Virus genome (UHGV): UHGV-0248979
Source of the DNA: a virus
Strand: one strand, 5' to 3'
Length of the DNA: 64,000 nt
The notes beneath the pieces are model-generated. The model had not been told where the DNA came from and did no database searches. It saw only the letters and a list, made by a program, of their open reading frames with translations. The position numbers and the translations under genes are program-made. Below, piece by piece: positions 1,969 through 40,596 of the stretch. Each line of letters begins with the position of its first letter. Within the stretch, counting starts at the first letter, position 1.

Positions 1969-1989
1969 GATATTACTCCTTCAGGTTGA

Positions 1990-2349
1990 TTAGTGTGTTA
2001 CAGTGTTAGTGATAAAACGCACATTCTTCTTGGTACGTTTAATGGACGTGTTTGCAACGTAGTCCAATGCGGACTCTACGTGAACGGTTACTGAGCAACG
2101 ACCCTTAACGGAATTAAAACTAATCTGATATTTCAGACGAATCGCATCAGCAACTTTCATCATAATCGGCAAGCTTAAACGTTCTACGCGTTCGTTCTTA
2201 ATAGATGAGATAACGGGTTGTGAAACTTTCGCAAGCTGGGCAAGCTCACGCTGGGTAATGTCTTTCGTGGTCAAATGACAAACTACGTAAGACAAATGAA
2301 GGCCAAATTTACGTTTTGCCAGAACGATGGAATTGTGATTGTAAGCCAC
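1990..2349 (-). CDS. XRE-type helix-turn-helix DNA-binding protein (candidate early regulator)
   Basis: 119-aa ORF with HTH-like ITQRELAQLAKVSQPVISSIKN; apparent GTG start at 2349 preceded by AGGAG; conserved upstream motif at 2398-2423. Confidence 0.55.
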   Translation of the reverse strand: MAYNHNSIVLAKRKFGLHLSYVVCHLTTKDITQRELAQLAKVSQPVISSIKNERVERLSLPIMMKVADAIRLKYQISFNSVKGRCSVTVHVESALDYVANTSIKRTKKNVRFITNTVTH

Positions 2350-2397
2350 GGTAATACTCCTTTAGGTTAACAAGTCGGTGTAAAGAGTTAATTGTAA

Positions 2398-2423
2398 CTC
2401 TCACCTAAGTAATATATATCTGA
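2398..2423 (-). promoter_or_regulatory. conserved promoter-like motif, copy 1 (candidate phage early promoter)
   Basis: Plus-strand CTCTCACCTAAGTAATATATATCTGA; on coding strand TCAGATATATATTACTTAGGTGAGAG, 48 nt upstream of start at 2349. Confidence 0.45.
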
Positions 2424-2462
2424 GAAAAAATAAAATATAGGTACCACCGTTGGGTGGTACCT
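2424..2462 (-). terminator. intrinsic terminator
   Basis: Hairpin GGTACCACC-GTTG-GGTGGTACC preceded by A-rich run; downstream of tmk stop. Confidence 0.6.
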
Positions 2463-2468
2463 AAGCGG

Positions 2469-3092
2469 TTAGTTTGCTAAAATGTACGTAACAATCTCTG
2501 CGGCTTTCAAACGGTAATCGTCATTCTGCGTTACCGGTAATAACGCGTGAAGACAACCGCCTTCTGTTAAGATGTGGTGCGCGAATCGATAACGGTCACG
2601 TAAACCATCCCAACATTGGTTGTCCTTTAGATACTTAACTGTAAGTACCTCATCATCCCAATTCTTACCTTGTTCTTCTACACGTTTCTTAAATCGTGTT
2701 AACGCTGTTGGGTAATCAACATCTGTCCAAACATAAAGGTCAGGAGTGTGGAAATGACGAGTTAGCTTACGTTGGAAAACCACATCCTTACCATCTGTCC
2801 CCTGATAAACGATCGTTGAAGGACAGAAGCGATCGAAAATAACGACATCGTACTCGTCAACAACATGGTCCAACGTGTGAAGGAAATCATCACACATCGC
2901 TTCAGCAATTTTTGTATTCGAAGCAGACTGTACAACCAAACTGCGTGCACGAATGCCCGCCTCGGTTTCAGATGTCGGATGGTTCCGAACGCAAACTTTT
3001 AATCCGGCGGATTCCAACATCGCTTTTACCATTTTACACAACGTTGATTTCCCAGAAAAGTCAGGACCATCAATAGACACTGTCTTAAGCAT
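2469..3092 (-). CDS. tmk: thymidylate (dTMP) kinase
   Basis: 207-aa ORF with N-terminal P-loop VSIDGPDFSGKSTL and downstream DRF motif, the thymidylate kinase arrangement; ATG at 3092 verified; terminator downstream. Confidence 0.7.
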   Translation of the reverse strand: MLKTVSIDGPDFSGKSTLCKMVKAMLESAGLKVCVRNHPTSETEAGIRARSLVVQSASNTKIAEAMCDDFLHTLDHVVDEYDVVIFDRFCPSTIVYQGTDGKDVVFQRKLTRHFHTPDLYVWTDVDYPTALTRFKKRVEEQGKNWDDEVLTVKYLKDNQCWDGLRDRYRFAHHILTEGGCLHALLPVTQNDDYRLKAAEIVTYILAN

Positions 3093-3161
3093 TATAGTTT
3101 TACCTTTTTACGCACGTTAAGTGAAACTTCTCACAATGAGGGTAACAGTTGTAATAATTTA

Positions 3162-3210
3162 CAATAAAAAAGAAACCCGCCCCTACCGTTAAGTAGGGGT
3201 AAGGTTTTAT
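3162..3210. terminator. hairpin terminator (bidirectional-looking)
   Basis: CCCCTAC-CGTTAA-GTAGGGG flanked by A-run and T-run. Confidence 0.5.
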
Positions 3211-3812
3211 TGGTGGTCAACAATCGGACCACTCCACACTTCTGACGTTTCCGGTGAGGTGAGGTTAGCAGCCTGTGCAGAAGTTACGCACAGCAAGACT
3301 AACCCTTGTTTAGCAAGATAATGTTGCATTCTTGCTGCCTGCACGGCGGTGTCCACAATAACGAGCTCAGCGTCACGTAGAAGCGTTAGAGCTGCTTGCC
3401 CCTCTTGCGGTGTGGTTAAAGCATCACTGTCGTCCAGAATGCGTTTAAGGCGGTTATACGCCAACCCAGTTACATTACTCCGACCTGCACGAAGATCAAC
3501 GACCATATTGCTGTATTCCCCCACCACTTGTTGCGTCGAGTTTGGATAAAATCGAAACGCAGCACGGCGACGTTTACGTCGCACCTCAGAAATCGCGCGT
3601 TGTAAAACCAGCAATACGTATTTCGGAGCCGCTTCGCTATTCGGTCGACGCATCTTGGCTAAACGTGCAGCTAAATCCAAAATTTTCGTTAAGGGATAGC
3701 GGTGTTTAAACCCGTCACGTTCGATAGTAACGCCACGTTTAGGCAACTTGCCTGTTTTGTTGATATACGATACTGTAATCAATAGTAATGAATCGAGAAT
3801 CATCTCTGACAT
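3207..3812 (-). CDS. hypothetical protein
   Basis: 201-aa ORF in co-directional block; no motif recognised. Confidence 0.5.
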   Translation of the reverse strand: MSEMILDSLLLITVSYINKTGKLPKRGVTIERDGFKHRYPLTKILDLAARLAKMRRPNSEAAPKYVLLVLQRAISEVRRKRRRAAFRFYPNSTQQVVGEYSNMVVDLRAGRSNVTGLAYNRLKRILDDSDALTTPQEGQAALTLLRDAELVIVDTAVQAARMQHYLAKQGLVLLCVTSAQAANLTSPETSEVWSGPIVDHQ

Positions 3813-19771: not shown

Positions 19772-21547
19772 TTAACGGCCAATCTTCGCAATGTCTTCTT
19801 CGGTTGCTTGGATCAAGTCGTTGAGTTTTGGATTACGTACCATCACCAGTTGGGTATTCGTCTTCATATACGGATTGAGAATGCCCGATTTGAACGGTGA
19901 TGATTTCGGAATGTAATACACGTTACCACATTCCAGATGAGATGCAGAGGCATGTTTTGTCCGGTCGTTAAGGTTAACCGTCTTACCGCCCTTGCTGCTA
20001 CGTTTTGATTCTGTTTCTGTCTGGCTGATAGCATGGGTTGAAACCCCCAGCACCATAGACTCTGTAGAAGCGTTGAAATAACTTACACCGCCGTTACCGG
20101 TAATGTTCCGCAATACCAGGCTGGTTACAATGTCTTTATTCAACGCACTGCGTATCATGTTCGCACAAGACTCCGGTGTTCTATTCTCCGTTTGTCCCAA
20201 GTGAAAACGAATCGCAGCAATGGTAGGTGTAAAACCACGCTCACCTAATAACAGGTAATCTGTTACGGTCAGACGTTTTCCATACATTGACGGAATATCG
20301 CCTTGTTTCGTGAGACGCGTTCTCACCATCAACTTCGTCGCGTACCAGAAGAAATCAAACATATCCATATCGTCCGGGATATCGGGATCTGACATCATTA
20401 ACTCGCCACGGAATGTTGAGTTAACGTAGCGTTCACACTCCGTATAGTGTTTCGTCATGCTGTGTGCCAGTTCAATATCAGACGGTTTAAGTCCAACAAT
20501 ACTTCTCCCCAAAATCTCCCGCCAAATTGCGGAGGAATTCAGGTTTACAACATCGTCCTCCATTGCAAGTTCATTAATAGCGGTAAACAACGGCGGTAAA
20601 GGAACAACGTTGCCGTTTTTAATCGCTTGTTTTCCGCAATAATAGTGCGCTGCTTTAAAGAATGCAGAAATCGCTACGAGTAATAAGTGTTCGTTTTGAT
20701 CCCATCCCGCTTTATCGAGATTCGGTAAAGCCTCTGCAGGAACCGTCACTACGTACATAATCGCCCGATTATGCTTAGGTTCACCTGAACCGATTACTAC
20801 TTTTTTATCGAGATCGATTTCAGGTACTTTGAATGCAGGATATATCTCTACATCCACACCAGTATAACGTTTGATGGCTTCCTTAAATCCATAACGTCCG
20901 AATAACCAGTACATTAACGGTTTCTCGTCCGTATCAGGATGTGTGGCGTTTTTGGCTTTAAACAAATTGTTTGTTCCGGGCAAGAACAACTCTTCTTTCT
21001 TCCCATTCACTAAAATACGTACCGGGTGCTTACAGAATTTTAGTGACGCTTTACGTTTAAAGTCAAAATTAACAAACACCCCGCCATGCTCACGACAGAT
21101 ACCCGGCTGATGAATAACAGGCGCAACGTGGTACGTTGTCCCGTAATAGTTCATCAACCCACCACGACGAATGAATGGCAAGTTAATCGGTCTTGAGATC
21201 GGCCTTGAGTCGCCAGGAATACGGAACGACGACATGACCATATACGCATCGGTATTCGCTATAGACATCACCCCACGACGTTTATCCATTCTGCTGCTCT
21301 CTGAGCGAGACAACTTGTAGATAAAAGTTTCGAACGGCGACATTAAACGAACACCCAATACAGCCAAGCCTTCAGGAACACGCGGATTCTCTACAGGATG
21401 GTAATCTAGCTCACGTTTCAAGATACGATGCACACGATCGTGAATACCATCTTTGGCTTGTGTATATCCGACTCCTTCCGCAATCGCGCGGTTAAAGGGT
21501 ACTATTTTACCACTCTCTTTAAGCTTTTTGATTGCATCTTTAAACAC
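19772..21547 (-). CDS. hypothetical protein
   Basis: 591-aa ORF; apparent GTG start at 21547 with AAGGAG 6 nt upstream. Confidence 0.5.
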   Translation of the reverse strand: MFKDAIKKLKESGKIVPFNRAIAEGVGYTQAKDGIHDRVHRILKRELDYHPVENPRVPEGLAVLGVRLMSPFETFIYKLSRSESSRMDKRRGVMSIANTDAYMVMSSFRIPGDSRPISRPINLPFIRRGGLMNYYGTTYHVAPVIHQPGICREHGGVFVNFDFKRKASLKFCKHPVRILVNGKKEELFLPGTNNLFKAKNATHPDTDEKPLMYWLFGRYGFKEAIKRYTGVDVEIYPAFKVPEIDLDKKVVIGSGEPKHNRAIMYVVTVPAEALPNLDKAGWDQNEHLLLVAISAFFKAAHYYCGKQAIKNGNVVPLPPLFTAINELAMEDDVVNLNSSAIWREILGRSIVGLKPSDIELAHSMTKHYTECERYVNSTFRGELMMSDPDIPDDMDMFDFFWYATKLMVRTRLTKQGDIPSMYGKRLTVTDYLLLGERGFTPTIAAIRFHLGQTENRTPESCANMIRSALNKDIVTSLVLRNITGNGGVSYFNASTESMVLGVSTHAISQTETESKRSSKGGKTVNLNDRTKHASASHLECGNVYYIPKSSPFKSGILNPYMKTNTQLVMVRNPKLNDLIQATEEDIAKIGR

Positions 21548-21557
21548 GCCATGCTCC

Positions 21558-22568
21558 TTACGTTAGCATCCCTATAAATGCGACACCCGCCGCCAAATAC
21601 GCAGGGACAGATTTAAATAGGTCTGAGCCGTCCTTACGAATGTAAGAACGCGTCTCGTAGAATTCTTTACGCGCCTCAGCCCGTGACTTCGCTTCCAATT
21701 CCTGTTGTTTGAATGCTAAAGTCAATCGCTCCTTTTCTAAAGCCATGCTCTGTAGTTGTTTCTTGTGTTCCAATTCTAGCTTGTCTTTTGCCGAATCCAA
21801 GCTTTCTAATTTTTCTTTGTACTGCTCCTCTAAACGTTGCTTAATCTCAAAGAGACCGGGAACTGCTTCTTGCCATCGAAACGCGTCCGCCGCTGCCTCA
21901 TCCTTAAATAATCTAAATGGTGAAGTAATGTCGTCAAATTCAAAATGAATCATACGACTCCCTTCCACCCTCGTACCACCTCCTATTATCATGTAAACGC
22001 CTGGTTCATAATAGCGAGACGTTATTGGCTCGATTTTCATTTTCGTGCCGTAGAAACGTAGCCACCGATAGTTGTCAGGCTCATCGTAGCGCTGCACAAC
22101 AACAACACCCAATGTAAATTCAGTGCGCTCACCTCCAGGGCGCGTGGTCGGGGGTTTACTATCTAAGCGTATTGGTGTTGTTGAGAAAGCAAAGCCTAAC
22201 TGCTTTAGTACAACCAAATCTCCTCGCAGCAACGCACCAACATCGTTTACTGCATACTCTAACGTCACCTCCCCTTTTTCTTTCAATTGGTCGCAAAAGC
22301 GAGAAAATTGTTTTCCCGGCAACAGTTCAGCAAACCCATTGAGATTCGCACATCTTCCGTACGATTGATACGTCACGTAAACGATAACCCCATGCTCATC
22401 AGCGGGGTTTTTCGAAGCATTTAAAATAAAGCTACCGCCACTGGTTTCAGTGACGTGAATAGGTACGCCAGTGTTATTTTCAAACGTAACGAGTTTCCTC
22501 AATCCAGACGTTTGATACAACGAGCGTTCAGAGATACTGGGCACCACATCGATATCAAGACGTTTCAT
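21558..22568 (-). CDS. hypothetical protein with coiled coil and C-terminal membrane anchor
   Basis: 336-aa ORF; charged coiled-coil segment then C-terminal hydrophobic VPAYLAAGVAFIGMLT; ATG at 22568 verified. Confidence 0.5.
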   Translation of the reverse strand: MKRLDIDVVPSISERSLYQTSGLRKLVTFENNTGVPIHVTETSGGSFILNASKNPADEHGVIVYVTYQSYGRCANLNGFAELLPGKQFSRFCDQLKEKGEVTLEYAVNDVGALLRGDLVVLKQLGFAFSTTPIRLDSKPPTTRPGGERTEFTLGVVVVQRYDEPDNYRWLRFYGTKMKIEPITSRYYEPGVYMIIGGGTRVEGSRMIHFEFDDITSPFRLFKDEAAADAFRWQEAVPGLFEIKQRLEEQYKEKLESLDSAKDKLELEHKKQLQSMALEKERLTLAFKQQELEAKSRAEARKEFYETRSYIRKDGSDLFKSVPAYLAAGVAFIGMLT

Positions 22569-22699
22569 GGGTGACCCAAGCTAAATTTTAATGATGTTAC
22601 ATATCTTTAGTTTAAACTGTATTTTTTCCATACATACTCCTTTAAAGCCAACTGACTGTCTCCCTTTAATAATATCTATCCAAAAAATAATAGAAAGAA

Positions 22700-22742
22700 A
22701 AAAATAAAAGGTCTAAGCCCCGAAGGGCTTAGACTCTTTTTA
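22700..22742. terminator. terminator downstream of the capsid candidate
   Basis: A-rich run, hairpin GTCTAAGCCC-CGAA-GGGCTTAGAC, then T-run. Confidence 0.7.
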
Positions 22743-22749
22743 AGCAAGA

Positions 22750-25044
22750 TTACTTACCGGCAGCAGCTTTGCCTTCGCCAGCAACGTTACCTGCTACACC
22801 ACCTTCGGTTTGTTTCTGACCGTTCTGTTCAACAGAAACATTGTAAGCCAGTTTTTCTTCAACCAGTTTGGTGATGCCTTTAACCCAGATCAGACCAGTG
22901 ATCGGGCAGTGGCAGATGTGCGCGTTACGCGGCTGTACGGCCAGCTCTTTAGAGGTAGAGCCGTTACGCTGAATGTTGATGTTAGTAACCATGATCGGAG
23001 ACCAGAAGTGGTTACCCCAGTTCAGCACGTTGTAGGAACCATCGTCCGCAGTCGGAACTTTCAGGAACCATTGCAGACGACGAGTCCAGGAACCGTCAGC
23101 TGCGTTGTAGATACGCCAGCGGTCATCGTTGGTGGTGATCACTTCGTATTCGTAGCGATCGCCCAGCAGACGTTGGTCGCCCTGTACCAGCAGCAGCATG
23201 GATGCAGTCGGTTCGTCGGTTGCAATAACAACCTTCGGCAGAATGTCCGGATCAGCAGTGTACAGACGCAGCGCAGGAATGAAGCGAGATTCCTGGATAG
23301 CCTGAGTTACCTGATTACCGATACGCTGTACCAGACCCTGACGAGCGTTGATCAGTGCTTCTTTGGTATCCAGGGACTGTACAACTTTATCAACGTTGTA
23401 GTCAGACTCTTTGAACCACGGAGCAACCCAGTGACGGCCCAGACCACGAATGGCCGGTTTGTCCCACGGAGTGATCATGCTTGCAGCAGCGTTACGTACC
23501 GCTTCGGTGTAAGACAGTGTCTGAGTGATAGCCAACTGTTCGTTACGGATGTTAACTGCGGAAATCAGGTCGTCCAGACGCTCGGTATCGTCGTATTCAA
23601 CGCCAACCGGAGACTTGGTCAGAATCGGAGAACCGTATTGCAGCTTGTAGTTTTCTTGTTCCCAGATTGGGTCGAGCAGCAGACCCTGGGTACGACGGTT
23701 TTCGTTGGTACGAGTACCATCGAAACGCCAGCCGATCAGTTCAAGTTTCAGATTTTCCAGGACAGCTTTGCCGGTACCAGTCTTAATATCAACTTTGTTA
23801 CCGGTAGCGTCGTACAGACCTTCGATTTCCAGTTTGTGACCAGCGATGTCAACTTTACCACCGAACTGACCGGTAGTGAACAGAGACATGTTGATGGTGA
23901 TCACATAACGCAGGGTGTAGGAGTTCTGTTCCAGTGTTTTCAGAGCCGGAATAGCTTCGCCTTTCCAGTCGGTAGTTTTCGCGTTCAGAGAGAACGCAGT
24001 ACGACGGAATTGCAGTACCAGCTCACGGCCATCACCTTCAGCAGGGCGCTGGAAGGTTGCGAACTGCATGTCGCGAACGTGCAGTTTAATGAATTTACCT
24101 GCTTTTGCATCTTCAGCCGCTTTACGTACGGAAATCAGCAGGCTGCCCAGAGCACAGCCCGGCGCGATTTCATCAGTTTCGTCGTAACCTTCGATTACGA
24201 TACCCGGATGCGCGGACAGCTGGAACAGGTTCAGAGTGTCTTTAGCAAAGCTCAGGTAGTTAGTCGGGTACGGAGGTACACGACCCAGACGAACAGATTC
24301 GTTCGGTACCAGATCTTCGCTTACGAAGTATTCAGCGTTTTCACCGGTTTCCATTACGTAAGGAACGATGTTGATCGCTTCGTCCTGGAGAACAGTGTGG
24401 TCAGTCAGCGCTTCATGTAAGTTACGACGATGATCTTCAACAACGTCTTTGCTCAGCAGTGCGTTCATTACACCGCGAGAAACGGTGGTCACTTTGGTAC
24501 GTACGGTAATACCAACATCGTTAGTGTCAACAGTGATGGTCGGGAACAGAGTCTCAGCAAAACGAGACTGGGTTTCCAGAGCACGTACGTTCAGCGTCCA
24601 GGTCAGACCCAGGTTTTTGTCGTAGTCTTTGTTGGTGTAGTATTCCTGAGCGACAACCATACGCTCTTTGCCCCAGTCGCCGTTACCAGCTTGGGAGCCA
24701 GGAATCGCAACGTCCAGGTTAAAACGGCTATGGAATTCCGGTTTAGCGTATTCTTGAGCTACTTTTTCTTGCAGGTCCATACCGTGACCAGCAGCACCCA
24801 GAATCATTGCAGAAGCAACTTCCGCAGCGTGGGACATTTTCTTACCGCCAGCAAACGCGTTTGCGTAGTGCTGTGCAGCGTCGTCACGCAGGGTACCAAA
24901 AACTTTAGTGTTGCTACGTACAGATTCACCAGCAACGATGGTGTTCCACATTTCGCCAGCAGTGTTGTTACTAATGACGCTTTGTACCAGCGAGTTACCA
25001 GCTTGTACGAGTTTCTCCAGATTAGAGATTCGGGTATCTTTCAT
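22750..25044 (-). CDS. major capsid protein candidate
   Basis: 764-aa ORF, in the size range recalled for jumbo-phage capsid proteins; codon usage visibly host-optimised, unlike neighbours; strong terminator downstream; N-terminal region has repeated A-Q-E motifs. No direct homology check. Confidence 0.45.
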   Translation of the reverse strand: MKDTRISNLEKLVQAGNSLVQSVISNNTAGEMWNTIVAGESVRSNTKVFGTLRDDAAQHYANAFAGGKKMSHAAEVASAMILGAAGHGMDLQEKVAQEYAKPEFHSRFNLDVAIPGSQAGNGDWGKERMVVAQEYYTNKDYDKNLGLTWTLNVRALETQSRFAETLFPTITVDTNDVGITVRTKVTTVSRGVMNALLSKDVVEDHRRNLHEALTDHTVLQDEAINIVPYVMETGENAEYFVSEDLVPNESVRLGRVPPYPTNYLSFAKDTLNLFQLSAHPGIVIEGYDETDEIAPGCALGSLLISVRKAAEDAKAGKFIKLHVRDMQFATFQRPAEGDGRELVLQFRRTAFSLNAKTTDWKGEAIPALKTLEQNSYTLRYVITINMSLFTTGQFGGKVDIAGHKLEIEGLYDATGNKVDIKTGTGKAVLENLKLELIGWRFDGTRTNENRRTQGLLLDPIWEQENYKLQYGSPILTKSPVGVEYDDTERLDDLISAVNIRNEQLAITQTLSYTEAVRNAAASMITPWDKPAIRGLGRHWVAPWFKESDYNVDKVVQSLDTKEALINARQGLVQRIGNQVTQAIQESRFIPALRLYTADPDILPKVVIATDEPTASMLLLVQGDQRLLGDRYEYEVITTNDDRWRIYNAADGSWTRRLQWFLKVPTADDGSYNVLNWGNHFWSPIMVTNINIQRNGSTSKELAVQPRNAHICHCPITGLIWVKGITKLVEEKLAYNVSVEQNGQKQTEGGVAGNVAGEGKAAAGK

Positions 25045-25056
25045 TTGTTTAATACC

Positions 25057-25581
25057 TTAATGAGATAAATGACATGCGTATAATTGCGTCAGCACTTCGT
25101 TAGCGGCAAACTGCGTTGAGGTACTGAAGCAGTCATCCACGACGCGAGTCTTGGTACGCATATATTTAAAAAGTTCTGCGCAGAACATCTTTTTCGCAGC
25201 GTGGTCTTCACCCGAAGAAAAACCCGAACCGGACTTTGCTTCTGCAAATGACGCCACAATCGTATCACCACGTTGAGTAAACACCCAACGTACGCGACAA
25301 GGAATTGTTTCCCCATATAAATCGTCAAGGGAAACCTTTTCGCCTGATTCGACCAGACGTAACACCTGATCATAATATTTACCTGGAAGCACAGGCGGAG
25401 CCATCAGTGCTTTATAAATAGCAGAACGACTTACTTCAGGTAAGATGATAGAACTGAAACCATTCGGACAGTCATATAACCAGTTAAAGAACCCTGCCTG
25501 GAGCAATTCTATACTTTTAACGGCAGCGCCTTTATCTATGTTAGGTTGAACTTCCCACGGTGGACTAAAACGAATTTGCAT
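25057..25581 (-). CDS. hypothetical protein
   Basis: 174-aa ORF directly upstream of the capsid candidate; ATG at 25581 verified. Confidence 0.45.
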   Translation of the reverse strand: MQIRFSPPWEVQPNIDKGAAVKSIELLQAGFFNWLYDCPNGFSSIILPEVSRSAIYKALMAPPVLPGKYYDQVLRLVESGEKVSLDDLYGETIPCRVRWVFTQRGDTIVASFAEAKSGSGFSSGEDHAAKKMFCAELFKYMRTKTRVVDDCFSTSTQFAANEVLTQLYACHLSH

Positions 25582-25594
25582 TTAAGGATGCTCC

Positions 25595-27157
25595 ATGAAT
25601 AACAAAATGATGTTGATAACCGCCTTAGCCACATTATACGCTGAAAGTCTTCTGACCGATCCTGAAAAGGACCACGACATCATAAGAAAAGTGCTGTTAG
25701 AGGCTAAGCTTCCTGATTACGCAGAGGAAGGTGACGAACGTGCCGCCCTCGTCGAAATCAAGGATATCATCACATCCATCATAGACGGCGGTATGCCTTA
25801 CGACCACACAAACGTCATGAAACGTTTGAAACTGGCCACTACGCAAATACGTCCTCTATACGATACGATTACCAAATTCCTGGAAGATGATATTCCAGAA
25901 GAACCAGAAGCACGCATCGAGCATCTTAATCGCCAAGTAGCACAATACTACTTTCAGTTACGTCAAGCTATTCAAGGCGTACAACTGAAACAAAAATTGG
26001 GTCGTACGTTAGGCGCACTGAACGGTACCGAAACGCGCGTTGATTTACAAACGGCGCTCAACGACCTTAAGGATACCTTATCCACGTTCAGTGAACGCTC
26101 TCATAATAAGATTCCTTCTCTGGTAGGGGAATTGATTACTGATAATAAAGCACCTTTCGTGCACGTTTTCGACTCTATCAGTAAGAAAGCGGCAGGGAAC
26201 GGGTTGCGTACAGGCTGGAAAGCAATTAACCAGATGCTCGGTTGTAACAAAGGGATCACCGAAGAACTCTGGCTGATGCCTGCTCTCCCCTTTAACTGTA
26301 AGTCATTATTCAGTTTATTGCTCTCTATTAGCATTCCTGTTTTCAACACCCCAGAAAAAGTGATGGCGAATGTTAAAGGTGATCTACAACCGGTTATTCT
26401 AGATTTAAGTTTAGAAAACGAATTGGATGTTAACTTGGCTTACGCGTATCAGGCACTTTACGGACACTTTGAAGGTACAGCCCCGGTGATGGTTGCGCCA
26501 GAAACCGCAACTGACGAAGAAAAAGCGTCACATAATGCACAAATGTCAGACTACCTCTGTAGTAAGATGCGGGCGAACGGTTGGGAGTATATTTTCCAAA
26601 AACACACAAACTCCGATTTTAAAATTCACTATTTGAACGATTTGATTTTAGATTTAAAACGTCGAGGTTATCATGTAGCTGGAATACGCGGAGACTATTT
26701 CGGTACTATCAGCAAAGCAGGGCACGGTAACGGCATTGCGGGTAGCGACATTAAAGAAATTTATCGTATCGCACGAAACATCCAAGTGGTACGTAATCGT
26801 GGTTTCCTGTTAGCACCACACCAAATCTCACCAGAAGGCAAAAAATTAAAAGCACTCGACCCAGCAAGTTTCTGTAAGAACTTACCTGGTCGTGGTCTTT
26901 ACGACAACTGCTCTAGCTTAGACAACGAAGCTGACGGTGAGATGTATTTTAACAAACGTGTCGTCAACGGTCACAGCTATTTAGAAGTACAACGCGGTAA
27001 ACACCGTACCATTATCGATACCAAAGAAGCTTATCATTATACTGTAATACCTTTCCGTGATGTTGGCATTTTGCCATGGGATTGTGATAAAGAAGAAACT
27101 GTAACAGCCTCGTCGATTAACGTATTTACCGGCGGCATGGGTGACGAACTCTTTTGA
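25595..27157 (+). CDS. hypothetical protein
   Basis: 520-aa ORF; ATG at 25595 with AAGGA SD; isolated plus-strand gene followed by hairpins. Confidence 0.5.
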   Translation: MNNKMMLITALATLYAESLLTDPEKDHDIIRKVLLEAKLPDYAEEGDERAALVEIKDIITSIIDGGMPYDHTNVMKRLKLATTQIRPLYDTITKFLEDDIPEEPEARIEHLNRQVAQYYFQLRQAIQGVQLKQKLGRTLGALNGTETRVDLQTALNDLKDTLSTFSERSHNKIPSLVGELITDNKAPFVHVFDSISKKAAGNGLRTGWKAINQMLGCNKGITEELWLMPALPFNCKSLFSLLLSISIPVFNTPEKVMANVKGDLQPVILDLSLENELDVNLAYAYQALYGHFEGTAPVMVAPETATDEEKASHNAQMSDYLCSKMRANGWEYIFQKHTNSDFKIHYLNDLILDLKRRGYHVAGIRGDYFGTISKAGHGNGIAGSDIKEIYRIARNIQVVRNRGFLLAPHQISPEGKKLKALDPASFCKNLPGRGLYDNCSSLDNEADGEMYFNKRVVNGHSYLEVQRGKHRTIIDTKEAYHYTVIPFRDVGILPWDCDKEETVTASSINVFTGGMGDELF

Positions 27158-27261
27158 GTCTGGGGAGCTTCGGCTCCCCCTATAACCCCTTATGCGTCTC
27201 GAAAAGCAAAAAAAAACAGAAGGCTATTAATTATGAACGGAAAACAACTACCGAACTAAGT

Positions 27262-27290
27262 AGGGGGTGTTGCTACCACCCCCTTTATTA
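27262..27290 (+). terminator. hairpin plus T-run (H3-type)
   Basis: GGGGGTG-TTGCTAC-CACCCCC followed by TTTATT; ~105 nt downstream of the plus gene stop and abutting small ORF copy 1 stop. Confidence 0.5.
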
Positions 27291-27299
27291 GTTAGTAAC

Positions 27300-27461
27300 T
27301 TATCTCCTTAGAGGTGGTTGCTGAACATTGTGGTTGTTAACCGTTTTCGGTGCCGCAACGAGGCCGAGACGAACATATTCGTCCATGCGTTGGTTAAACT
27401 GAATTTGTTTTTCACGATTTCGCATCGCGGTATTGAACATCTGTATTTGATATTCGTTCAT
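27300..27461 (-). CDS. small protein, copy 1 of a tandem paralogue family (53 aa)
   Basis: Below ORF-track size cutoff. MNEYQIQMFNTAMRNREKQIQFNQRMDEYVRLGLVAAPKTVNNHNVQQPPLRR; AAAGG SD upstream; H3-type hairpin right after the stop. Confidence 0.4.
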   Translation of the reverse strand: MNEYQIQMFNTAMRNREKQIQFNQRMDEYVRLGLVAAPKTVNNHNVQQPPLRR

Positions 27462-27520
27462 TTTTCATTACCTTTCGTAATGTTGTAAAAACGTCAACAA
27501 CTTTATGTGTTGACACCGTA

Positions 27521-27610
27521 CAGCAGAGACTGGCGGAACAGCCTCTGCTGCTTTAACTTCTCTTTCGAAAAGTTAAAGCTATGAAAAGGGGTGGTGGTGC
27601 ACCCCTTTTT
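27521..27610. repeat. three-hairpin module, copy A (candidate structured RNA / regulatory element)
   Basis: H1 27521-27550 (CAGCAGAG...CTCTGCTG), H2 27550-27579 (GCTTTAACTT-loop CTCTTTCGAA-AAGTTAAAGC), H3 27584-27609 (AAAAGGGGTG...CACCCCTTTT). Confidence 0.45.
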
Positions 27611-27685
27611 ATTATACCTACGACCACCATCTCGGCAGGTTACTGTACGAGGAGGAGAGGCGTGTCAGCGCCTCTCCTTTATTTG

Positions 27686-27859
27686 TTAGTAGTGTTCACT
27701 CCTCTTTTCGGTGAATATCTGCGTGAAACGGTTGGTAGACGGTTTTAACCGTTTATCCATGCCGAGCTGACTATACTTGTAGATACGTTGCTGTAAATTG
27801 GTCTTTGCTGCACTCTGTTCTGCAAGCATTTTGTCAGTAAAGTAGTAACCATTGTTCAT
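27686..27859 (-). CDS. small protein, copy 2 of tandem paralogue family (57 aa)
   Basis: MNNGYYFTDKMLAEQSAAKTNLQQRIYKYSQLGMDKRLKPSTNRFTQIFTEKRSEHY; AAGAGGG SD upstream; hairpin 27654-27677 right after stop; shares C-terminal consensus with copy 3. Confidence 0.45.
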   Translation of the reverse strand: MNNGYYFTDKMLAEQSAAKTNLQQRIYKYSQLGMDKRLKPSTNRFTQIFTEKRSEHY

Positions 27860-27949
27860 GGTAGGCCCTCTTTGTAGGGTGATTAAAGAAATCCACTACG
27901 GAAACGTAATGGTGTTGTAAAGGGGTGTGACAGCACCCCTTTATTTTAT

Positions 27950-28120
27950 TTAGTAGTTACTTCTCCTTTCGGTGAAGATTTGTACTCGAGGATTATTAGA
28001 AGGTTTAAGCCTTTTATTTAATCCTAGCTGTTGAACTTCTCTTAATCGTTCATTAAACCTCGCTTGTTCTGCATAGCTGTTTGAAATAGAAGTAAAGATA
28101 CGTGAATTGTTGTTAGTCAT
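27950..28120 (-). CDS. small protein, copy 3 of tandem paralogue family (56 aa)
   Basis: MTNNNSRIFTSISNSYAEQARFNERLREVQQLGLNKRLKPSNNPRVQIFTERRSNY; GAGG SD upstream; hairpin 27919-27942 right after stop. Confidence 0.45.
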   Translation of the reverse strand: MTNNNSRIFTSISNSYAEQARFNERLREVQQLGLNKRLKPSNNPRVQIFTERRSNY

Positions 28121-28175
28121 GTTAAAACCTCACACGAGTTGGGGATTAAGCTATTACGTGACTGTAATAGCGACA

Positions 28176-28264
28176 AGTAGGGACTGCTGGTACAGCCCCT
28201 ACTGCTTTATCTTCTCTTTCGAAAAGATAAAGCGCCTAAGGGGAGTGCGCCAACACACCCCTTT
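28176..28264. repeat. three-hairpin module, copy B
   Basis: H1 28176-28203 (AGTAGGG...CCCTACT, loop ACTGCTGGTACAGC), H2 28204-28233 (GCTTTATCTT-same loop-AAGATAAAGC), H3 28238-28264; same order and spacing as copy A with compensatory stem changes. Confidence 0.45.
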
Positions 28265-28270
28265 AGGTTG

Positions 28271-28321
28271 TTACCTTCTTTCAACTATCAACTGGATGTT
28301 TCTTGGGTATGCAACCTTGGG
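28271..28321 (-). pseudogene. decayed fourth copy of the small-protein family (C-terminal remnant)
   Basis: Minus frame ending at stop 28271-28273 reads ...PKVAYPRNIQLIVERR, matching the family C-terminus (PRVQIFTERR); no in-frame start, upstream frames disrupted; stop abuts an H3-type hairpin. Confidence 0.3.
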
Positions 28322-28449
28322 CTACGTTAACGTTGGTCGCGGTATTGCACTAACCCTTCGCTGAAACTCAAGTTGTTTTGTTGACAACTCGTTTAACCGT
28401 CGAAACAGCAGTTCATGTTTCGTGAACTCATCTCCTATGTCGAATTTGC

Positions 28450-28493
28450 GAAAATAAATAAAGTGTACCCCTAATCCCGAAAAGGATTAGGGG
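28450..28493 (-). terminator. intrinsic terminator
   Basis: CCCCTAATCC-CGAAAA-GGATTAGGGG preceded by A-rich run; immediately downstream of stop at 28500. Confidence 0.6.
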
Positions 28494-28499
28494 TTGCTT

Positions 28500-37852: not shown

Positions 37853-37900
37853 GAAAAAAAAAAGAAAAGAGAGAACCACCCTGTAATAGGGTGGTTCTCT
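37853..37900 (-). terminator. intrinsic terminator downstream of paralogue A
   Basis: A-run then 13-bp stem AGAGAACCACCCT...AGGGTGGTTCTCT. Confidence 0.65.
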
Positions 37901-37917
37901 TACTAAACAATCAGAGA

Positions 37918-39183
37918 TTATTTAGATTTTTCGTAAGCAGCGATACCTGCGGAGATATAGCCGTTCAGACCGCCAGCCAGATGTTTCTGAGTAGAAGCAA
38001 TAACTTTCTCACCCAGAGACAGGGCCTGGTTAATGCTGGTGATGTAACGACGGGCAGCACGTACAGCTTCGGTCAGTTCCGGTTTTTCGTCGATCTTAAC
38101 TTTATCGACTTCTTTCAGGAGCTTATCGATATTATCTTCAAAAGTTTTCCGCGCACTTTCGACTTTACGATAATCCTGAACGTTCTTCTCAATCTGTTTG
38201 CCCACTTCATTGAAGAAGGCGTTGATTTTAGCCAATTCGCCAGCAGACGGAGTTTTCACACTAGTTTCAACGCTATTTTCTGCTGCAACAAAGGTGGAGC
38301 TGAAACCGCCTTCGTTGTCATACTCGGTTTTCAACGCCATGTTACCGAGTTTGAAGTTTTGTTGACTGTCTTTTTCGGCCAGTTCGGTAAAGTCGGCTTT
38401 CAGTTTTTCAACTTTAGCACCATTACCTTTGGTAACATCGGAAACCATTTCAGCAGCTTTAGCGGCCATGGAAGGCATCTTAGTGCTATAGAATGTGGAA
38501 ACCTGGCTAAGGATACCTTTCAGTTTCGGAATATTATCGCCGACGAACTTGCCATCGATAGACAGAGACTTGATAAACCCACCAGAGATCTCATCTTTCT
38601 TCTGTTTGCCCAGCTTACGAATAACTTCATCGTATTTCTTAGCACGCGCCTGGATAGATTTACCCTGGTTGGAGAATTTCAGCCAACGATCTTTGATCTT
38701 ACGGCCTTGTTCTTTCAGCCATTCCCAGATACGACCCAGGAAGGCTTTAATGTCTTCCCACAGGGATTCACGAGCCACCTGGCGACGGTTACGAGAACCG
38801 TAGGATTCGTGTGCAACGGAAGAACGGTGATCGAAGTTCCAACGAGAACGGATAGATTCCTGAGCAACGTCCAGCGCGGTCGCAGCGTCGTCCGGCATAT
38901 CTTCTTCGGCGTCCATCGGGTCTTCGCCGTCTTCGCCAGCACCTTCACCGTCAGCAGCGGCCTGAGCTTCATCCAGAACATCCAGCTGAGCGTCAGTTTC
39001 GTCGCCGTCTTCTGCCAGCAGTTCAGCGTCAGCGTCCAGGGCTTCGATCGGTTTGGTGTCATGCTCGATATCGGCCAGAGTGCCTTCTACGGATTCTGCT
39101 GGCAGTTCGATGCCGTCTGGAACTACAGTAGCGGTAGACTCCATAGACTCACGAGCAATTTTGTTTTTGTAGAAATTCGCCAT
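37918..39183 (-). CDS. abundant virion protein candidate, paralogue A (acidic N-terminal region)
   Basis: 421-aa ORF, ATG at 39183 verified; host-optimised codon usage; shares MANF N-terminus, VAQESI after the acidic region, LGKQKKDEISGGFI core and AYEKSK C-terminus with paralogue B; strong terminator downstream. Confidence 0.6.
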   Translation of the reverse strand: MANFYKNKIARESMESTATVVPDGIELPAESVEGTLADIEHDTKPIEALDADAELLAEDGDETDAQLDVLDEAQAAADGEGAGEDGEDPMDAEEDMPDDAATALDVAQESIRSRWNFDHRSSVAHESYGSRNRRQVARESLWEDIKAFLGRIWEWLKEQGRKIKDRWLKFSNQGKSIQARAKKYDEVIRKLGKQKKDEISGGFIKSLSIDGKFVGDNIPKLKGILSQVSTFYSTKMPSMAAKAAEMVSDVTKGNGAKVEKLKADFTELAEKDSQQNFKLGNMALKTEYDNEGGFSSTFVAAENSVETSVKTPSAGELAKINAFFNEVGKQIEKNVQDYRKVESARKTFEDNIDKLLKEVDKVKIDEKPELTEAVRAARRYITSINQALSLGEKVIASTQKHLAGGLNGYISAGIAAYEKSK

Positions 39184-39265
39184 TTTAAGCTTTTCCTCTA
39201 AGGGGAACGCGTTGTTCCCCTGATGATTTATTTCAAGAACTGTACGGAACTACGAATCTAAATTA

Positions 39266-40537
39266 TTATTTAGATTTTTCGTAAGCACCGATACCAGCAC
39301 CCAGGTAACCATTCAGACCGCTAATAACGGTGTTAGCAACATAGCTAACGGCGCGGTTCAGGGTCTGGTAGTTCTTAACAGACCAATCAGCAGCTTGACG
39401 TGCGTTACGCAGGCCATCCCATTTGCTTTCGTCTTTCTCGTTATTCAGCTCTTTGGTTGCTTTTTCAGCAGCCTGTTGCAGTTTCACGATTTCAGAATCG
39501 TAAGCACGGAAATCTTTCAGTACGGCTTCGAAGCCTTTACCGATTGCTTCCAGAGCAGAAGCAGCACCAGCCATTTCAGAAACAGACGGAGTTTTCACGT
39601 CTTTATCGTCAGAAGCGTCACCGGTGCTCATGAAAGCAATTGCGGTGAACTTGTGGCCGCCAGCCAGTTCTTTAGTACCAGCCTGAATGTATGCGTTGCC
39701 TGGCAGTGCCAGCAGTTTAGACGCATCGCCTTTTTCAAAATTCGGCAGAGAATGCAGTTTAGACGCTGCTTTACCGAACAGGTCTACAGGCTGATCGCCG
39801 CGCATTGCTTTGAAGGAATCGTCGTCACCCTTGCTCACAGCAGTTACAGCTTCACCGGCCTGTTTTTCCAGAGCACTGATGGAACCTTTAGCTTTACCAG
39901 CGGTAACTTCTTTCGCAATAGCGATAGAGCCAGCAGCATCGAATTTACCTTCGATAGACAGCTTGGTGATAAACCCACCAGAGATCTCATCTTTCTTCTG
40001 TTTGCCCAGCTTACGCAGCATTTCCTGATATTTCTTCGCACGTTTCTGTGCGGTCTTACCGACGTTGAAATATTTCAGTTTCAGGTCTTTGATCTTCGCA
40101 ATCACTTCTTTACAGAACTGAATGAAACGATCGTAAAGATCTTTCAGGGTTTCTTTCCAACCTTCCTGGGCAGCAGCAGTCATACCACGACCACGGCGAT
40201 AGGATTCGCGAGCCAGTTTAGTACGTTCCAGGCACCAACGACGTGCGATGGATTCCTGTGCCACTTCGTGCAGGGCAACCGCTTCTTCCGGCATTTCTTC
40301 ACCGTTAGCAACGGCTTCTTCCGCCTGTTCGATAGCGTCTTCAGTACGCTCGGTATCGGCAGCCAGGGTTTCACCGTCGGTTTCCAGCTGATCGAGCTGA
40401 CCGTCGATAGATGCAACGTCCGCAAGTTGGACGTCCAGGTTCTCTTCTGCCGGTTCAACGTTGCTGATACCGTCGATTACTTCATCGGCCGCTTCCATCG
40501 ATTCACGAGCGGCGCGAGTTTTTGCGAAATTTGCCAT
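39266..40537 (-). CDS. abundant virion protein candidate, paralogue B (acidic N-terminal region)
   Basis: 423-aa ORF, ATG at 40537 verified with AAGGAAA SD; same conserved blocks as paralogue A. Confidence 0.6.
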   Translation of the reverse strand: MANFAKTRAARESMEAADEVIDGISNVEPAEENLDVQLADVASIDGQLDQLETDGETLAADTERTEDAIEQAEEAVANGEEMPEEAVALHEVAQESIARRWCLERTKLARESYRRGRGMTAAAQEGWKETLKDLYDRFIQFCKEVIAKIKDLKLKYFNVGKTAQKRAKKYQEMLRKLGKQKKDEISGGFITKLSIEGKFDAAGSIAIAKEVTAGKAKGSISALEKQAGEAVTAVSKGDDDSFKAMRGDQPVDLFGKAASKLHSLPNFEKGDASKLLALPGNAYIQAGTKELAGGHKFTAIAFMSTGDASDDKDVKTPSVSEMAGAASALEAIGKGFEAVLKDFRAYDSEIVKLQQAAEKATKELNNEKDESKWDGLRNARQAADWSVKNYQTLNRAVSYVANTVISGLNGYLGAGIGAYEKSK

Positions 40538-40596
40538 TTCGTTTATTTCCTTTGGTTATATAACCCAATTACACGCCCCTAGAATGAGGGGCCCCC

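What the first reader, a model, noticed from the sequence alone, without database searches (positions are those of the whole stretch)
22750..25044. Capsid candidate with distinct codon usage generating long antisense ORFs
The 764-aa ORF has visibly host-optimised codon usage, unlike flanking genes, and its N-terminal region carries repeated A-Q-E motifs. The antisense strand holds 536-aa and 212-aa ORFs (22810-24420, 24430-25068) that are most simply by-products of this codon periodicity. The capsid call itself rests on size and context, not homology.
Basis: inference. Interest (0 to 1): 0.4.

Follow-up and report, generated by a model that had tools for sequence, protein, structure and literature searches.

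The report
Jumbo-phage capsid gene with mirror ORFs
This is the major capsid protein gene of an SPN3US/phiKZ-type jumbo phage of enterobacteria, written almost entirely in the host's preferred codons, and the two long ORFs on its opposite strand are a known side effect of that codon choice, so the finding is correct but ordinary.

Summary

**Capsid call.** ORF 22750..25044 (-), 764 aa, is a PhiKZ-type major capsid protein. It scores Pfam PF25620 4.8e-209 and phrog_3231 1.4e-278. It is 78% identical to SPN3US gp75 in the same gene order. It matches solved phiKZ and phi-kp24 capsid chains by sequence and by predicted fold. The call now rests on homology.

**Codon usage.** The bias is extreme and of the E. 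coli type. CAI against E. coli ribosomal-protein and elongation-factor genes is 0.776, against 0.359 ± 0.064 for 57 other window genes. The top codon agrees for 17 of 18 amino acids.

**Antisense ORFs.** Both lie in exact codon register with the gene, where stops can arise only opposite TTA, CTA or TCA. The gene uses one such codon, TTA at codon 209, which is the single stop separating the two ORFs. The ORFs have no Shine-Dalgarno motif, no family match and no conserved boundaries in relatives. Their apparent dN/dS is about 2.2, like the mirror frames of neighbouring genes.

**A-Q-E motifs.** The two copies (VAQE-98, VAQE-134) sit at conserved A-x-E positions. The second aligns with the mapped gp75 maturation cleavage site, ATE-130.

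Low interest.

The parts
22750..25044 (-). Major capsid protein precursor gene. 764 codons plus a TAA stop at 22750-22752. Ortholog of SPN3US gp75 and phiKZ gp120.
   Evidence: Pfam PF25620 4.8e-209 covering profile 2-634/635. phrog_3231 1.4e-278. PDB 8y6v gp120 2.4e-33. 79.7% aa identity to Asesino gp91 and 78.1% to SPN3US gp75. Same gene order as SPN3US gp73-gp77.
24643..25044 (-). Codons 1-134: N-terminal propeptide, predicted mostly alpha-helical. Inferred to be removed by the prohead protease.
   Evidence: Alignment places window VAQE-134|YYTNKD on SPN3US VATE-130|YYTNKD. ATE-130 is the cleavage site mapped by mass spectrometry (PMC5694885, PMC10052503). The model shows helices 3-26, 29-37, 46-63, 72-83, 88-97 and 102-107. 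Cleavage itself is inferred.
24751..24759 (-). First A-Q-E motif (residues 96-98, context K-V-A-Q-E-Y). Candidate second protease site inside the propeptide.
   Evidence: A96 and E98 are invariant in 13 relatives. E98 is >=90% conserved in 38 homologs. V at P4 fits the gp245 site logo (PMC10052503). Cleavage here has not been shown in any relative.
24643..24651 (-). Second A-Q-E motif (residues 132-134, context V-V-A-Q-E|Y). Predicted maturation cleavage site.
   Evidence: E134 and Y135 are invariant in 38 homologs. The motif aligns to SPN3US gp75 ATE-130.
22753..24642 (-). Codons 135-764: predicted mature capsid protein, 630 aa and 70.5 kDa, with an HK97-type fold.
   Evidence: Mass computed; mature SPN3US gp75 is 70.4 kDa. 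All PDB sequence matches start at query residues 127-161. Foldseek gives 8y6v 2.4e-32 and 8bfl 6e-31, followed by other HK97-fold capsids.
24418..24420 (-). The only TTA/CTA/TCA codon of the gene (TTA, Leu209). On the + strand it reads TAA and is the single stop that splits the mirror frame into the two ORFs.
22810..24420 (+). 536-aa antisense ORF in frame -1 (codon register). Judged non-coding.
   Evidence: No PHROG or Pfam match. No Shine-Dalgarno motif before its TTG start. Composition F 10.3%, V 13.4%, K 0.4%, W 0.2%. CAI 0.379. Apparent dN/dS 2.1-2.3. Exact sequence absent from 15 billion predicted proteins. Stop positions differ in relatives.
24430..25068 (+). 212-aa antisense ORF in the same frame -1. 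Judged non-coding.
   Evidence: Same tests as for the 536-aa ORF.
22695..22734 (-). Intrinsic terminator about 15 nt after the MCP stop. The stem is 22734..22711 on the - strand (GUCUAAGCCC-UUCG-GGGCUUAGAC), followed by CUUUUAUUUUUUU.
   Evidence: Terminator scan. RNA fold -22.1 kcal/mol, z = -4.8, 0 of 200 shuffles as stable. Function is inferred.

Best explanation
ORF 22750..25044 (-) encodes the major capsid protein precursor of an uncultured SPN3US/Asesino-like jumbo phage related to phiKZ that infects Enterobacteriaceae.

A T=27 capsid needs about 1,600 copies of this protein per virion. The gene has therefore been driven by translational selection to use almost only the codons read by the host's abundant tRNAs: CTG, CGT, GGT/GGC, ATC, AAC, TAC, TTC, GAA, AAA, ACC/ACT, TCT/TCC, GCT, GTT and CCG. 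This codon choice also raises local GC.

TTA, CTA and TCA are all non-preferred codons, so they have nearly vanished from the gene. Their reverse complements are the three stop codons. The codon-register antisense frame is therefore almost stop-free. It appears as a 536-aa and a 212-aa ORF separated by the single remaining TTA. These ORFs are mirror images of the gene, not genes.

The N-terminal 134 residues form a helical propeptide carrying A-x-E motifs. The prohead protease (the SPN3US gp245 type) is predicted to cut after VAQE-134, leaving a 70.5-kDa HK97-fold shell protein.

Shown here: family membership, the codon statistics, the register and origin of the antisense ORFs, their lack of conservation and lack of selection, and conservation of the motifs. 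Inferred: the abundance of the protein, the actual cleavage, and the identity of the host.
For: **Family membership**
- Pfam PF25620 696 bits and phrog_3231 927 bits.
- PDB sequence hits to four jumbo-phage MCP chains.
- Foldseek probability 1.00 to phiKZ and phi-kp24 capsids.
- 78-80% identity to, and shared gene order with, SPN3US and Asesino.

**Translational selection**
- All non-preferred codons are depleted, not only the three that matter for the antisense frame. ATA, AGA, AGG, GGA, GGG and CCC are each 0. ACG is 1, against 36% of Thr codons in the background.
- r = 0.963 with E. coli ribosomal-protein and elongation-factor usage, and the top codon agrees for 17 of 18 amino acids.
- CAI is 0.776, z = 6.5.
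- The only other window genes with this bias are the two internal head protein paralogs (CAI 0.70 and 0.75, 0 antisense stops). Their SPN3US orthologs gp53 and gp54 rank just after gp75 in virion abundance (PMC5694885).
- The bias is family-wide: MCP CAI is 0.68-0.79 against 0.19-0.53 for flanking ORFs in 19 related loci.
- E. coli tufA has 0 of 394 and fusA 2 of 704 antisense-stop codons.

**By-product ORFs**
- P(<=1 stop) = 0.13 under E. coli ribosomal-protein usage.
- Relatives have 0-9 stops at non-conserved positions, even at 97-98% identity.
- Antisense amino-acid identity falls much faster than sense identity: 73.6% against 91.6% for L006.
- Apparent dN/dS is 2.1-2.3, within the 1.4-5.4 range of mirror frames of neighbouring genes that hold no ORF. 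bioRxiv 10.1101/724807 describes this as the expected pattern for unselected frame -1 ORFs.
- No Shine-Dalgarno motif. The two promoter-like matches in 22300-25700 (fewer than the 4.1 expected from shuffles) are not placed to drive either ORF. No family match.

**Cleavage**
-, with PMC5694885 and PMC10052503.
Against: - The host is not known, and E. coli is a proxy. The link rests on the names of assemblies that hold proteins of the same 90% cluster.
- No expression, proteome or ribosome-profiling data exist for this phage, so abundance and cleavage come from orthology.
- The structure model is only moderate (mean pLDDT 66, pTM 0.54). TM-scores to phiKZ gp120 are low (0.32 / 0.42) even though the Foldseek probability is 1.00.
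- The absence of signals on the + strand is weak evidence. The promoter scan uses a sigma-70 consensus, which may not apply if this phage transcribes late genes with its own RNA polymerase, as phiKZ-like phages are reported to do (my own knowledge; not tested here).
- dN/dS tests have little power against a short or weakly constrained antisense product.
Confidence: 0.93

Rival explanations
1. One or both antisense ORFs are real overprinted genes. On this view, the avoidance of TTA, CTA and TCA in the capsid gene is maintained at least partly to keep them open.
For: Against the window's average codon usage, the open frame is extremely improbable (P = 4e-15). Long open mirror frames recur in most relatives, with 0-2 stops in 13 of the 19 distinct related loci. 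Translated antisense ORFs have been reported in bacteria (reviewed in bioRxiv 10.1101/724807).
Against: - The depletion is not specific to the three relevant codons. It extends to every non-preferred codon.
- Host-type ribosomal-protein usage alone gives P = 0.13.
- Stop positions and ORF boundaries are not conserved, even between 97-98% identical phages.
- Apparent dN/dS is 2.1-2.3, the same as mirror frames of neighbouring genes without ORFs.
- There is no Shine-Dalgarno motif at either start, no family match and an aberrant composition.
- The exact sequences are absent from 15 billion called proteins.
- The same artefact appears opposite the two internal head protein genes and opposite E. 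coli tufA and fusA.
Confidence: 0.02
2. The distinct composition marks a recently acquired foreign gene (a horizontal-transfer island), not selection on translation.
For: GC is 0.51 across 23-25 kb, against 0.43-0.45 in the flanks. Synonymous divergence from close relatives differs sharply between adjacent genes, for example dS 0.106 in the MCP against 0.00-0.03 in gp74 and the helicase versus L005. This shows local recombination among related phages.
Against: - The gene sits in the same gene order as in SPN3US, Asesino and phiEaH2.
- The same bias relative to flanking genes is present in all 19 related loci, down to 60% identity.
- The shift is codon-specific: A-ending GAA and AAA and T-ending GCT, GTT, CGT and GGT are favoured. 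It matches E. coli highly expressed genes (r = 0.96) rather than being a simple GC change.
- Two unlinked head genes 13-15 kb away share it.
Confidence: 0.03
3. The protein is a capsid-family paralog with a specialised role, such as a vertex protein like T4 gp24, and not the main shell protein.
For: Only family-level homology was tested here. Only 64 kb of a roughly 225-kb genome is in view, so a second copy elsewhere cannot be excluded from the window alone.
Against: - It is the positional and 78%-identical ortholog of SPN3US gp75, which has 1,560-1,615 copies per virion (PMC5694885, PMC10052503).
- In phiKZ all 1,620 shell positions are gp120 (PMC11297242).
- It has the strongest codon bias in the window.
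- No phage record in the tblastn search held more than one matching place: 225 records, 225 places.
Confidence: 0.02

Closest known systems
Salmonella phage SPN3US gp75 (major capsid protein; Seoulvirus) and Erwinia phage Asesino gp91 (Erskinevirus)
   Same: - 78.1% and 79.7% amino-acid identity over 96-97% of the length.
- Same neighbours: helicase, gp74-like, MCP, gp76-like and the gp77-like polymerase-family gene (phrog_2943, 'polymerase').
- Same N-terminal propeptide, with the cleavage motif aligned (VATE-130 against VAQE-134) and the same predicted mature mass (70.4 against 70.5 kDa).
- Same extreme codon bias (CAI 0.77 and 0.75) and a stop-free mirror frame (0 stops in both).
   Different: - About 20% amino-acid and 22% nucleotide divergence, so this is a distinct lineage with no cultured representative in the phage collection.
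- GC3 is lower (0.52 against 0.61-0.63).
- The P2 residue of the cleavage motif is Q, not T or R.
- There is a three-residue insertion before the site.
Pseudomonas phage phiKZ gp120 (PDB 8Y6V; Pfam PF25620 PhiKZ_MCP)
   Same: - Same Pfam family across the whole profile.
- Sequence E = 2.4e-33 and Foldseek E = 2.4e-32, probability 1.00.
- gp120 has an HK97-type N-arm, P domain and A domain plus an inserted I domain. It is cleaved after a Glu (E163) by the prohead protease (PMC11297242).
   Different: - Only about 21-24% identity.
- The propeptide regions do not align by sequence.
- Different host clade.
Long frame -1 antisense ORFs opposite highly expressed bacterial genes (dnaK, rpoB, tufA, fusA and others)
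   Same: - Stops in frame -1 can arise only opposite TTA, CTA or TCA, and optimised genes avoid these codons.
- Such ORFs look positively selected (Ka/Ks > 1) when they are not under selection (bioRxiv 10.1101/724807).
- Reproduced here with E. coli tufA (0 of 394) and fusA (2 of 704).
   Different: None of substance. This case lies in a phage gene, and at 556 open codons it is long because the gene is long.

Membership tests
PhiKZ-type major capsid protein (Pfam PF25620 / phrog_3231) | Profile match above the curated cut-off over the full domain. | tested here: met
   PF25620 scores 696.1 bits against a cut-off of 27, covering profile 2-634/635 and protein 73-729. phrog_3231 covers 1-744/746 with E = 1.4e-278. 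All 42 database homologs carry PF25620.
PhiKZ-type major capsid protein (Pfam PF25620 / phrog_3231) | HK97-type capsid fold (A and P domains), as in solved gp120. | tested here: met
   - Sequence matches to solved jumbo-phage MCP chains 11bt, 36za, 8bfl and 8y6v (1e-50 to 2e-33).
- The AlphaFold2 model (pLDDT 66, pTM 0.54) hits 8y6v, 8bfl and 7x30, and then many HK97-fold capsids and encapsulins in Foldseek.
- Caveat: TM-scores are low (0.3-0.4) because the model is of moderate quality and includes the propeptide.
PhiKZ-type major capsid protein (Pfam PF25620 / phrog_3231) | N-terminal propeptide ending in an (A/S/G)-x-E prohead-protease site. | tested here: met
   VAQE-134 aligns with the mapped SPN3US gp75 site ATE-130. 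E134 and Y135 are invariant in 38 homologs (PMC5694885). Only the sequence feature was tested.
PhiKZ-type major capsid protein (Pfam PF25620 / phrog_3231) | Actual proteolytic maturation and presence as the dominant virion shell protein (T=27). | not testable with these tools
   Needs virion mass spectrometry or cryo-EM of this phage. Shown for the orthologs SPN3US gp75 and phiKZ gp120 (PMC10052503, PMC11297242).
PhiKZ-type major capsid protein (Pfam PF25620 / phrog_3231) | Conserved genomic position in SPN3US-like genomes. | tested here: met
   The order helicase (PF20307), gp74-like (phrog_8266), MCP, gp76-like (phrog_7286), gp77-like (phrog_2943) matches SPN3US gp73-gp77, Asesino gp89-93 and phiEaH2.
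Translationally optimised, highly expressed gene | Codon adaptation far above the rest of the genome and matching host highly expressed genes. | tested here: met
   CAI 0.776 against 0.359 ± 0.064. r = 0.963, with 17 of 18 top codons shared with E. coli ribosomal-protein and elongation-factor genes. The host is a proxy, supported by the Shigella, Salmonella and Enterobacter assembly names.
Translationally optimised, highly expressed gene | The bias tracks protein abundance across genes. | tested here: met
   The only three window genes with CAI > 0.7 are the MCP and the two phiKZ_IP paralogs. Their SPN3US orthologs gp75, gp53 and gp54 are the three most abundant virion proteins (PMC5694885). 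Abundance in this phage is inferred by orthology.
Functional antisense overlapping (overprinted) gene | Stop-codon avoidance beyond what the sense gene's codon usage explains. | tested here: not met
   P(<=1 stop) = 0.13 under E. coli ribosomal-protein usage. All non-preferred codons are depleted alike.
Functional antisense overlapping (overprinted) gene | Purifying selection on the antisense product and conserved ORF boundaries in relatives. | tested here: not met
   Antisense dN/dS is 2.1-2.3, against 0.12-0.16 for the sense frame. That is the same as the mirror frames of neighbouring genes. Relatives have 0-9 stops at different positions.
Functional antisense overlapping (overprinted) gene | Translation signals and homology to a protein family. 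| tested here: not met
   No Shine-Dalgarno motif before 22810 or 24430. The only + strand sigma-70-like match in 22300-25700 lies at 25349-25376, downstream of both ORFs. No PHROG or Pfam hit. Not among 15 billion predicted proteins.
Functional antisense overlapping (overprinted) gene | Direct evidence of transcription and translation. | not testable with these tools
   Needs strand-specific RNA-seq, ribosome profiling or proteomics.

The most novel reading that the evidence does not exclude
The stop-free mirror frames opposite the three most codon-optimised head genes (the MCP and two internal head proteins) are translated at a low level during infection and give functional or proto-gene products. 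If so, translational optimisation of abundant virion genes would act as a recurrent source of de novo antisense genes in jumbo phages.
Probability: 0.02. Interest if true: 0.6.

Novelty: new member of a known kind. Interest (0 to 1): 0.08.

Why it matters
It matters mainly for annotation.

- **Gene identity.** The gene can be labelled with confidence as the major capsid protein. In public isolate assemblies, proteins of its 90% cluster are still called "hypothetical protein", and some are shortened to 683-685 aa by an internal start.
- **Mirror ORFs.** The two long antisense ORFs here, and the two similar pairs opposite the internal head protein genes, should not be called as genes.
- **Host hint.** The codon profile points to a host with E. 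coli / Salmonella-type tRNA preferences for this uncultured jumbo phage.
- **Testable prediction.** The conserved VAQE-134 site predicts a mature N-terminus at Y135 and a mature mass of 70.5 kDa, which proteomics can check.

None of this changes current understanding of jumbo phages or of antisense ORFs.

Tried and rejected
- **Antisense ORFs as genes: rejected.** PHROG and Pfam scans were empty. The exact-sequence look-up was empty. A scan for Shine-Dalgarno motifs at all in-frame starts found only weak 4-nt matches at internal GTG or TTG codons. dN/dS and stop positions argue against it.
- **Horizontal transfer as the cause of the GC and codon shift: rejected.** Gene order is conserved and the bias is family-wide.
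- **Phage tRNAs shaping the bias: rejected for this window.** There are no tRNA genes in the 64 kb. The rest of the genome was not seen.
- **Structured RNA in the window or in the 181-nt gap after the gene: nothing beyond a terminator.** There are no Rfam families, only an intrinsic terminator.
- **Sigma-70-type promoter for the MCP or for the antisense strand: none convincing.** The scan found fewer sites than shuffles give.
- **First megablast with a 25,001-base query: failed** on the length limit and was repeated.
- **Structure prediction: only a moderate model**. I used it for fold assignment only, not for mapping the variable patches.
- **Correspondence of E134 with phiKZ E163:** suggested by the offset of the PDB alignment, but the alignment does not reach the site. 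I do not claim it.
Full report
**1. What is in the sequence**

- 22750..25044 (-), 764 aa, ATG start
- 22810..24420 (+), 536 aa, TTG start
- 24430..25068 (+), 212 aa, ATG start

GC rises to 0.51-0.52 across 23-25 kb, against 0.43-0.45 on either side.

**2. What the 764-aa protein is**

It is a PhiKZ-type major capsid protein, and the call now rests on homology.
- It matches Pfam PF25620 (PhiKZ_MCP) with E = 4.8e-209. The score is 696 bits against a cut-off of 27, covering profile positions 2-634 of 635.
- It matches phrog_3231 "major head protein" with E = 1.4e-278.
- By sequence it matches four solved jumbo-phage capsid chains, including phiKZ gp120 (8y6v, 2.4e-33) and chain 8bfl_A (1.1e-34). 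One search identifies 8bfl as phage phi-kp24 capsid hexamers.
- Its closest cultured relatives are Erwinia phage Asesino gp91 (79.7% identity) and Salmonella phage SPN3US gp75 (78.1%).
- The neighbourhood is the same as in those phages: divergent DnaB-like helicase, a 174-aa protein, the MCP, a 336-aa protein, and a 591-aa polymerase-family protein (phrog_2943).

An AlphaFold2 model built on 38 homologs is of moderate quality (pLDDT 66, pTM 0.54). In Foldseek it still hits the following:
- the phiKZ capsid (E = 2.4e-32, probability 1.00)
- phi-kp24 (6e-31)
- Staphylococcus jumbo phage S6 (2.8e-8)
- then a long list of HK97-fold capsids and encapsulins

The phiKZ structure paper describes gp120 as an HK97-type N-arm, P domain and A domain with an added I domain (PMC11297242).

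The SPN3US ortholog is the most abundant virion protein by mass spectrometry, at 1,560-1,615 copies (PMC5694885, PMC10052503).

**3. Codon usage**

The gene's synonymous usage differs massively from 57 other window genes (chi2 = 514, df 41, p = 4e-83).
- CTG makes up 91% of Leu codons and CGT 83% of Arg codons.
- TAC is at 96%, AAC at 91%, and GAA and AAA at 85-86%.
- ATA, AGA, AGG, GGA, GGG, CCC, CTA and TCA are all zero.

I built a reference from 29 E. coli K-12 ribosomal-protein and elongation-factor genes.
- Against it the MCP has CAI 0.776. That is higher than the reference genes' own mean (0.68). The other window genes average 0.359 ± 0.064, so z = 6.5.
- Synonymous fractions correlate with the reference at r = 0.963, and the top codon agrees for 17 of 18 amino acids.

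Using E. coli as a proxy host is reasonable. The exact protein is on 76 public contigs of up to 227 kb. Its 90% cluster carries names from Shigella flexneri, Salmonella enterica and Enterobacter ludwigii assemblies.

Only two other window genes share the bias: 37918..39183 (-) and 39266..40537 (-), with CAI 0.70 and 0.75. Both are phiKZ_IP internal head proteins. Their SPN3US counterparts gp53 and gp54 rank second and third in virion abundance after gp75 (PMC5694885). The bias therefore tracks copy number.

It is also family-wide. In 19 related loci the MCP has CAI 0.68-0.79, while flanking ORFs have 0.19-0.53. This argues for long-standing translational selection and against recent horizontal acquisition.

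**4. The antisense ORFs**

Both start at offsets divisible by three from 22750, so they lie in frame -1, in codon register with the gene. In that frame a stop can arise only opposite a sense TTA, CTA or TCA.
- The MCP has one such codon in 764: TTA at Leu209 (24418-24420). This is exactly the stop that ends the 536-aa ORF.
- Other window genes have about 20-80 such codons per 1000.
- With the window's average usage, 30.5 are expected and P(<=1) = 4e-15.
- With E. coli ribosomal-protein usage, 3.55 are expected and P(<=1) = 0.13. No extra force is needed.
- The other antisense frames have 28 and 41 stops.
- E. coli tufA (0 of 394) and fusA (2 of 704) show the same effect. So do the mirror ORFs opposite the two internal head protein genes, at 436 and 395 aa.

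Further tests all point the same way.
- **Conservation of boundaries.** In 19 distinct related loci the MCP has 0-9 antisense stops at non-conserved positions. A 98%-identical relative has them at codons 196 and 370, and a 97% relative has none.
- **Divergence.** The antisense translation diverges much faster than the sense one: 73.6% against 91.6% identity to L006.
- **Selection.** Apparent dN/dS is 2.1-2.3 for the antisense frame, against 0.12-0.16 for the sense frame. Mirror frames of neighbouring genes that contain no ORF give 1.4-5.4. bioRxiv 10.1101/724807 describes this "looks positively selected" signature for unselected frame -1 ORFs.
- **Translation signals.** Neither start has a Shine-Dalgarno motif, and the only + strand sigma-70-like match in the region lies downstream of both ORFs.
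- **Composition.** It is the mirror of the sense bias: F 10%, V 13-14%, K 0.4-1.9%.
- **Homology.** There is no Pfam or PHROG match, and neither sequence is among 15 billion predicted proteins.

**5. The A-Q-E motifs**

Exact AQE occurs at residues 96-98 and 132-134, both times as V-A-Q-E-Y (P(>=2) = 6e-4).
- The SPN3US prohead protease gp245 cleaves after A-x-E, with a preference for V at P4. It cuts gp75 after ATE-130 (PMC5694885, PMC10052503).
- In the alignment, window VAQE-134|YYTNKD lies on SPN3US VATE-130|YYTNKD.
- E134 and Y135 are invariant in 38 homologs, and E98 is conserved in at least 90% of them.
- The predicted mature protein is 630 aa and 70.5 kDa, against 70.4 kDa for mature gp75.
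- Residues 1-134 are predicted to be largely helical, as expected of a scaffold-like propeptide.
- Cleavage at E134 is inferred. Cleavage at E98 is only a candidate.

**6. Gene end**

About 15 nt after the TAA stop lies a strong hairpin, GUCUAAGCCC-UUCG-GGGCUUAGAC, followed by a U-run. It folds at -22.1 kcal/mol with z = -4.8. It is a typical intrinsic terminator.

**7. Verdict**

This is an uncharacterised-lineage member of a well-known capsid family, showing two textbook phenomena. The first is translational codon optimisation of the most abundant virion proteins. The second is the resulting stop-free frame -1 mirror ORFs. Interest is low. The useful outputs are annotation guidance, a host hint, and a predicted maturation site.

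Noticed in passing
window 37918-39183 (-) and 39266-40537 (-), with mirror ORFs 37891-39201 (+) and 39395-40582 (+): Two paralogous phiKZ-type internal head proteins (PF12699, phrog_2497) share the MCP's extreme codon bias (CAI 0.70 and 0.75). They contain no TTA, CTA or TCA, which produces 436-aa and 395-aa mirror ORFs that a gene caller could mistake for genes. They carry V-A-x-E-S motifs (ARE-12, AQE-109/95, AHE-126, ARE-139/111, AQE-125) like the mapped cleavage sites of SPN3US gp53 and gp54.
   Followed up: partly
protein of window 22753-25044 (-); cluster look-up: The exact MCP sequence occurs on 76 public contigs of up to 227 kb. Its 90% cluster (378 members) is named from isolate assemblies of Shigella flexneri, several Salmonella enterica serovars and Enterobacter ludwigii. 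This suggests the jumbo phage is often co-assembled with bacterial isolates, through a carrier state or through contamination.
   Followed up: no
window 22750-25044 (-), residues 284-312, 361-372 and 420-437: Against 97-98% identical relatives, the MCP has a higher dN/dS (0.12-0.16) than its neighbours (0-0.06). The replacements cluster in three short patches, and at most of those positions the window differs from all three relatives compared. These may be surface loops under diversifying pressure or small recombination tracts.
   Followed up: partly
window 19772-27157 compared with L005 and L006: Synonymous divergence from the same relative changes abruptly between adjacent genes. Against L005, dS is 0.00-0.03 in gp74 and the helicase but 0.11-0.13 in the MCP and gp76. 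Against L006, dS is 0.09 in gp74 but 1.4-1.9 in gp76 and gp77. This indicates mosaic recombination among these phages.
   Followed up: no
L001 (phiEaH2) 1600-1713 (-) and 1735-3810 (+); PGAP proteins P0047-P0051: Public records annotate this gene inconsistently. phiEaH2 starts the MCP at an internal Met and adds a 37-aa antisense 'hypothetical protein' over the true N-terminus. Several isolate assemblies give 683-685-aa versions. Conservation of residues 1-134 across 38 homologs supports the long form.
   Followed up: partly
window 1-64000: There are no tRNA genes and no Rfam family at gathering threshold anywhere in the 64 kb. A stretch of about 1.3 kb (27158-28499) has no ORF of 100 aa or more.
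   Followed up: no
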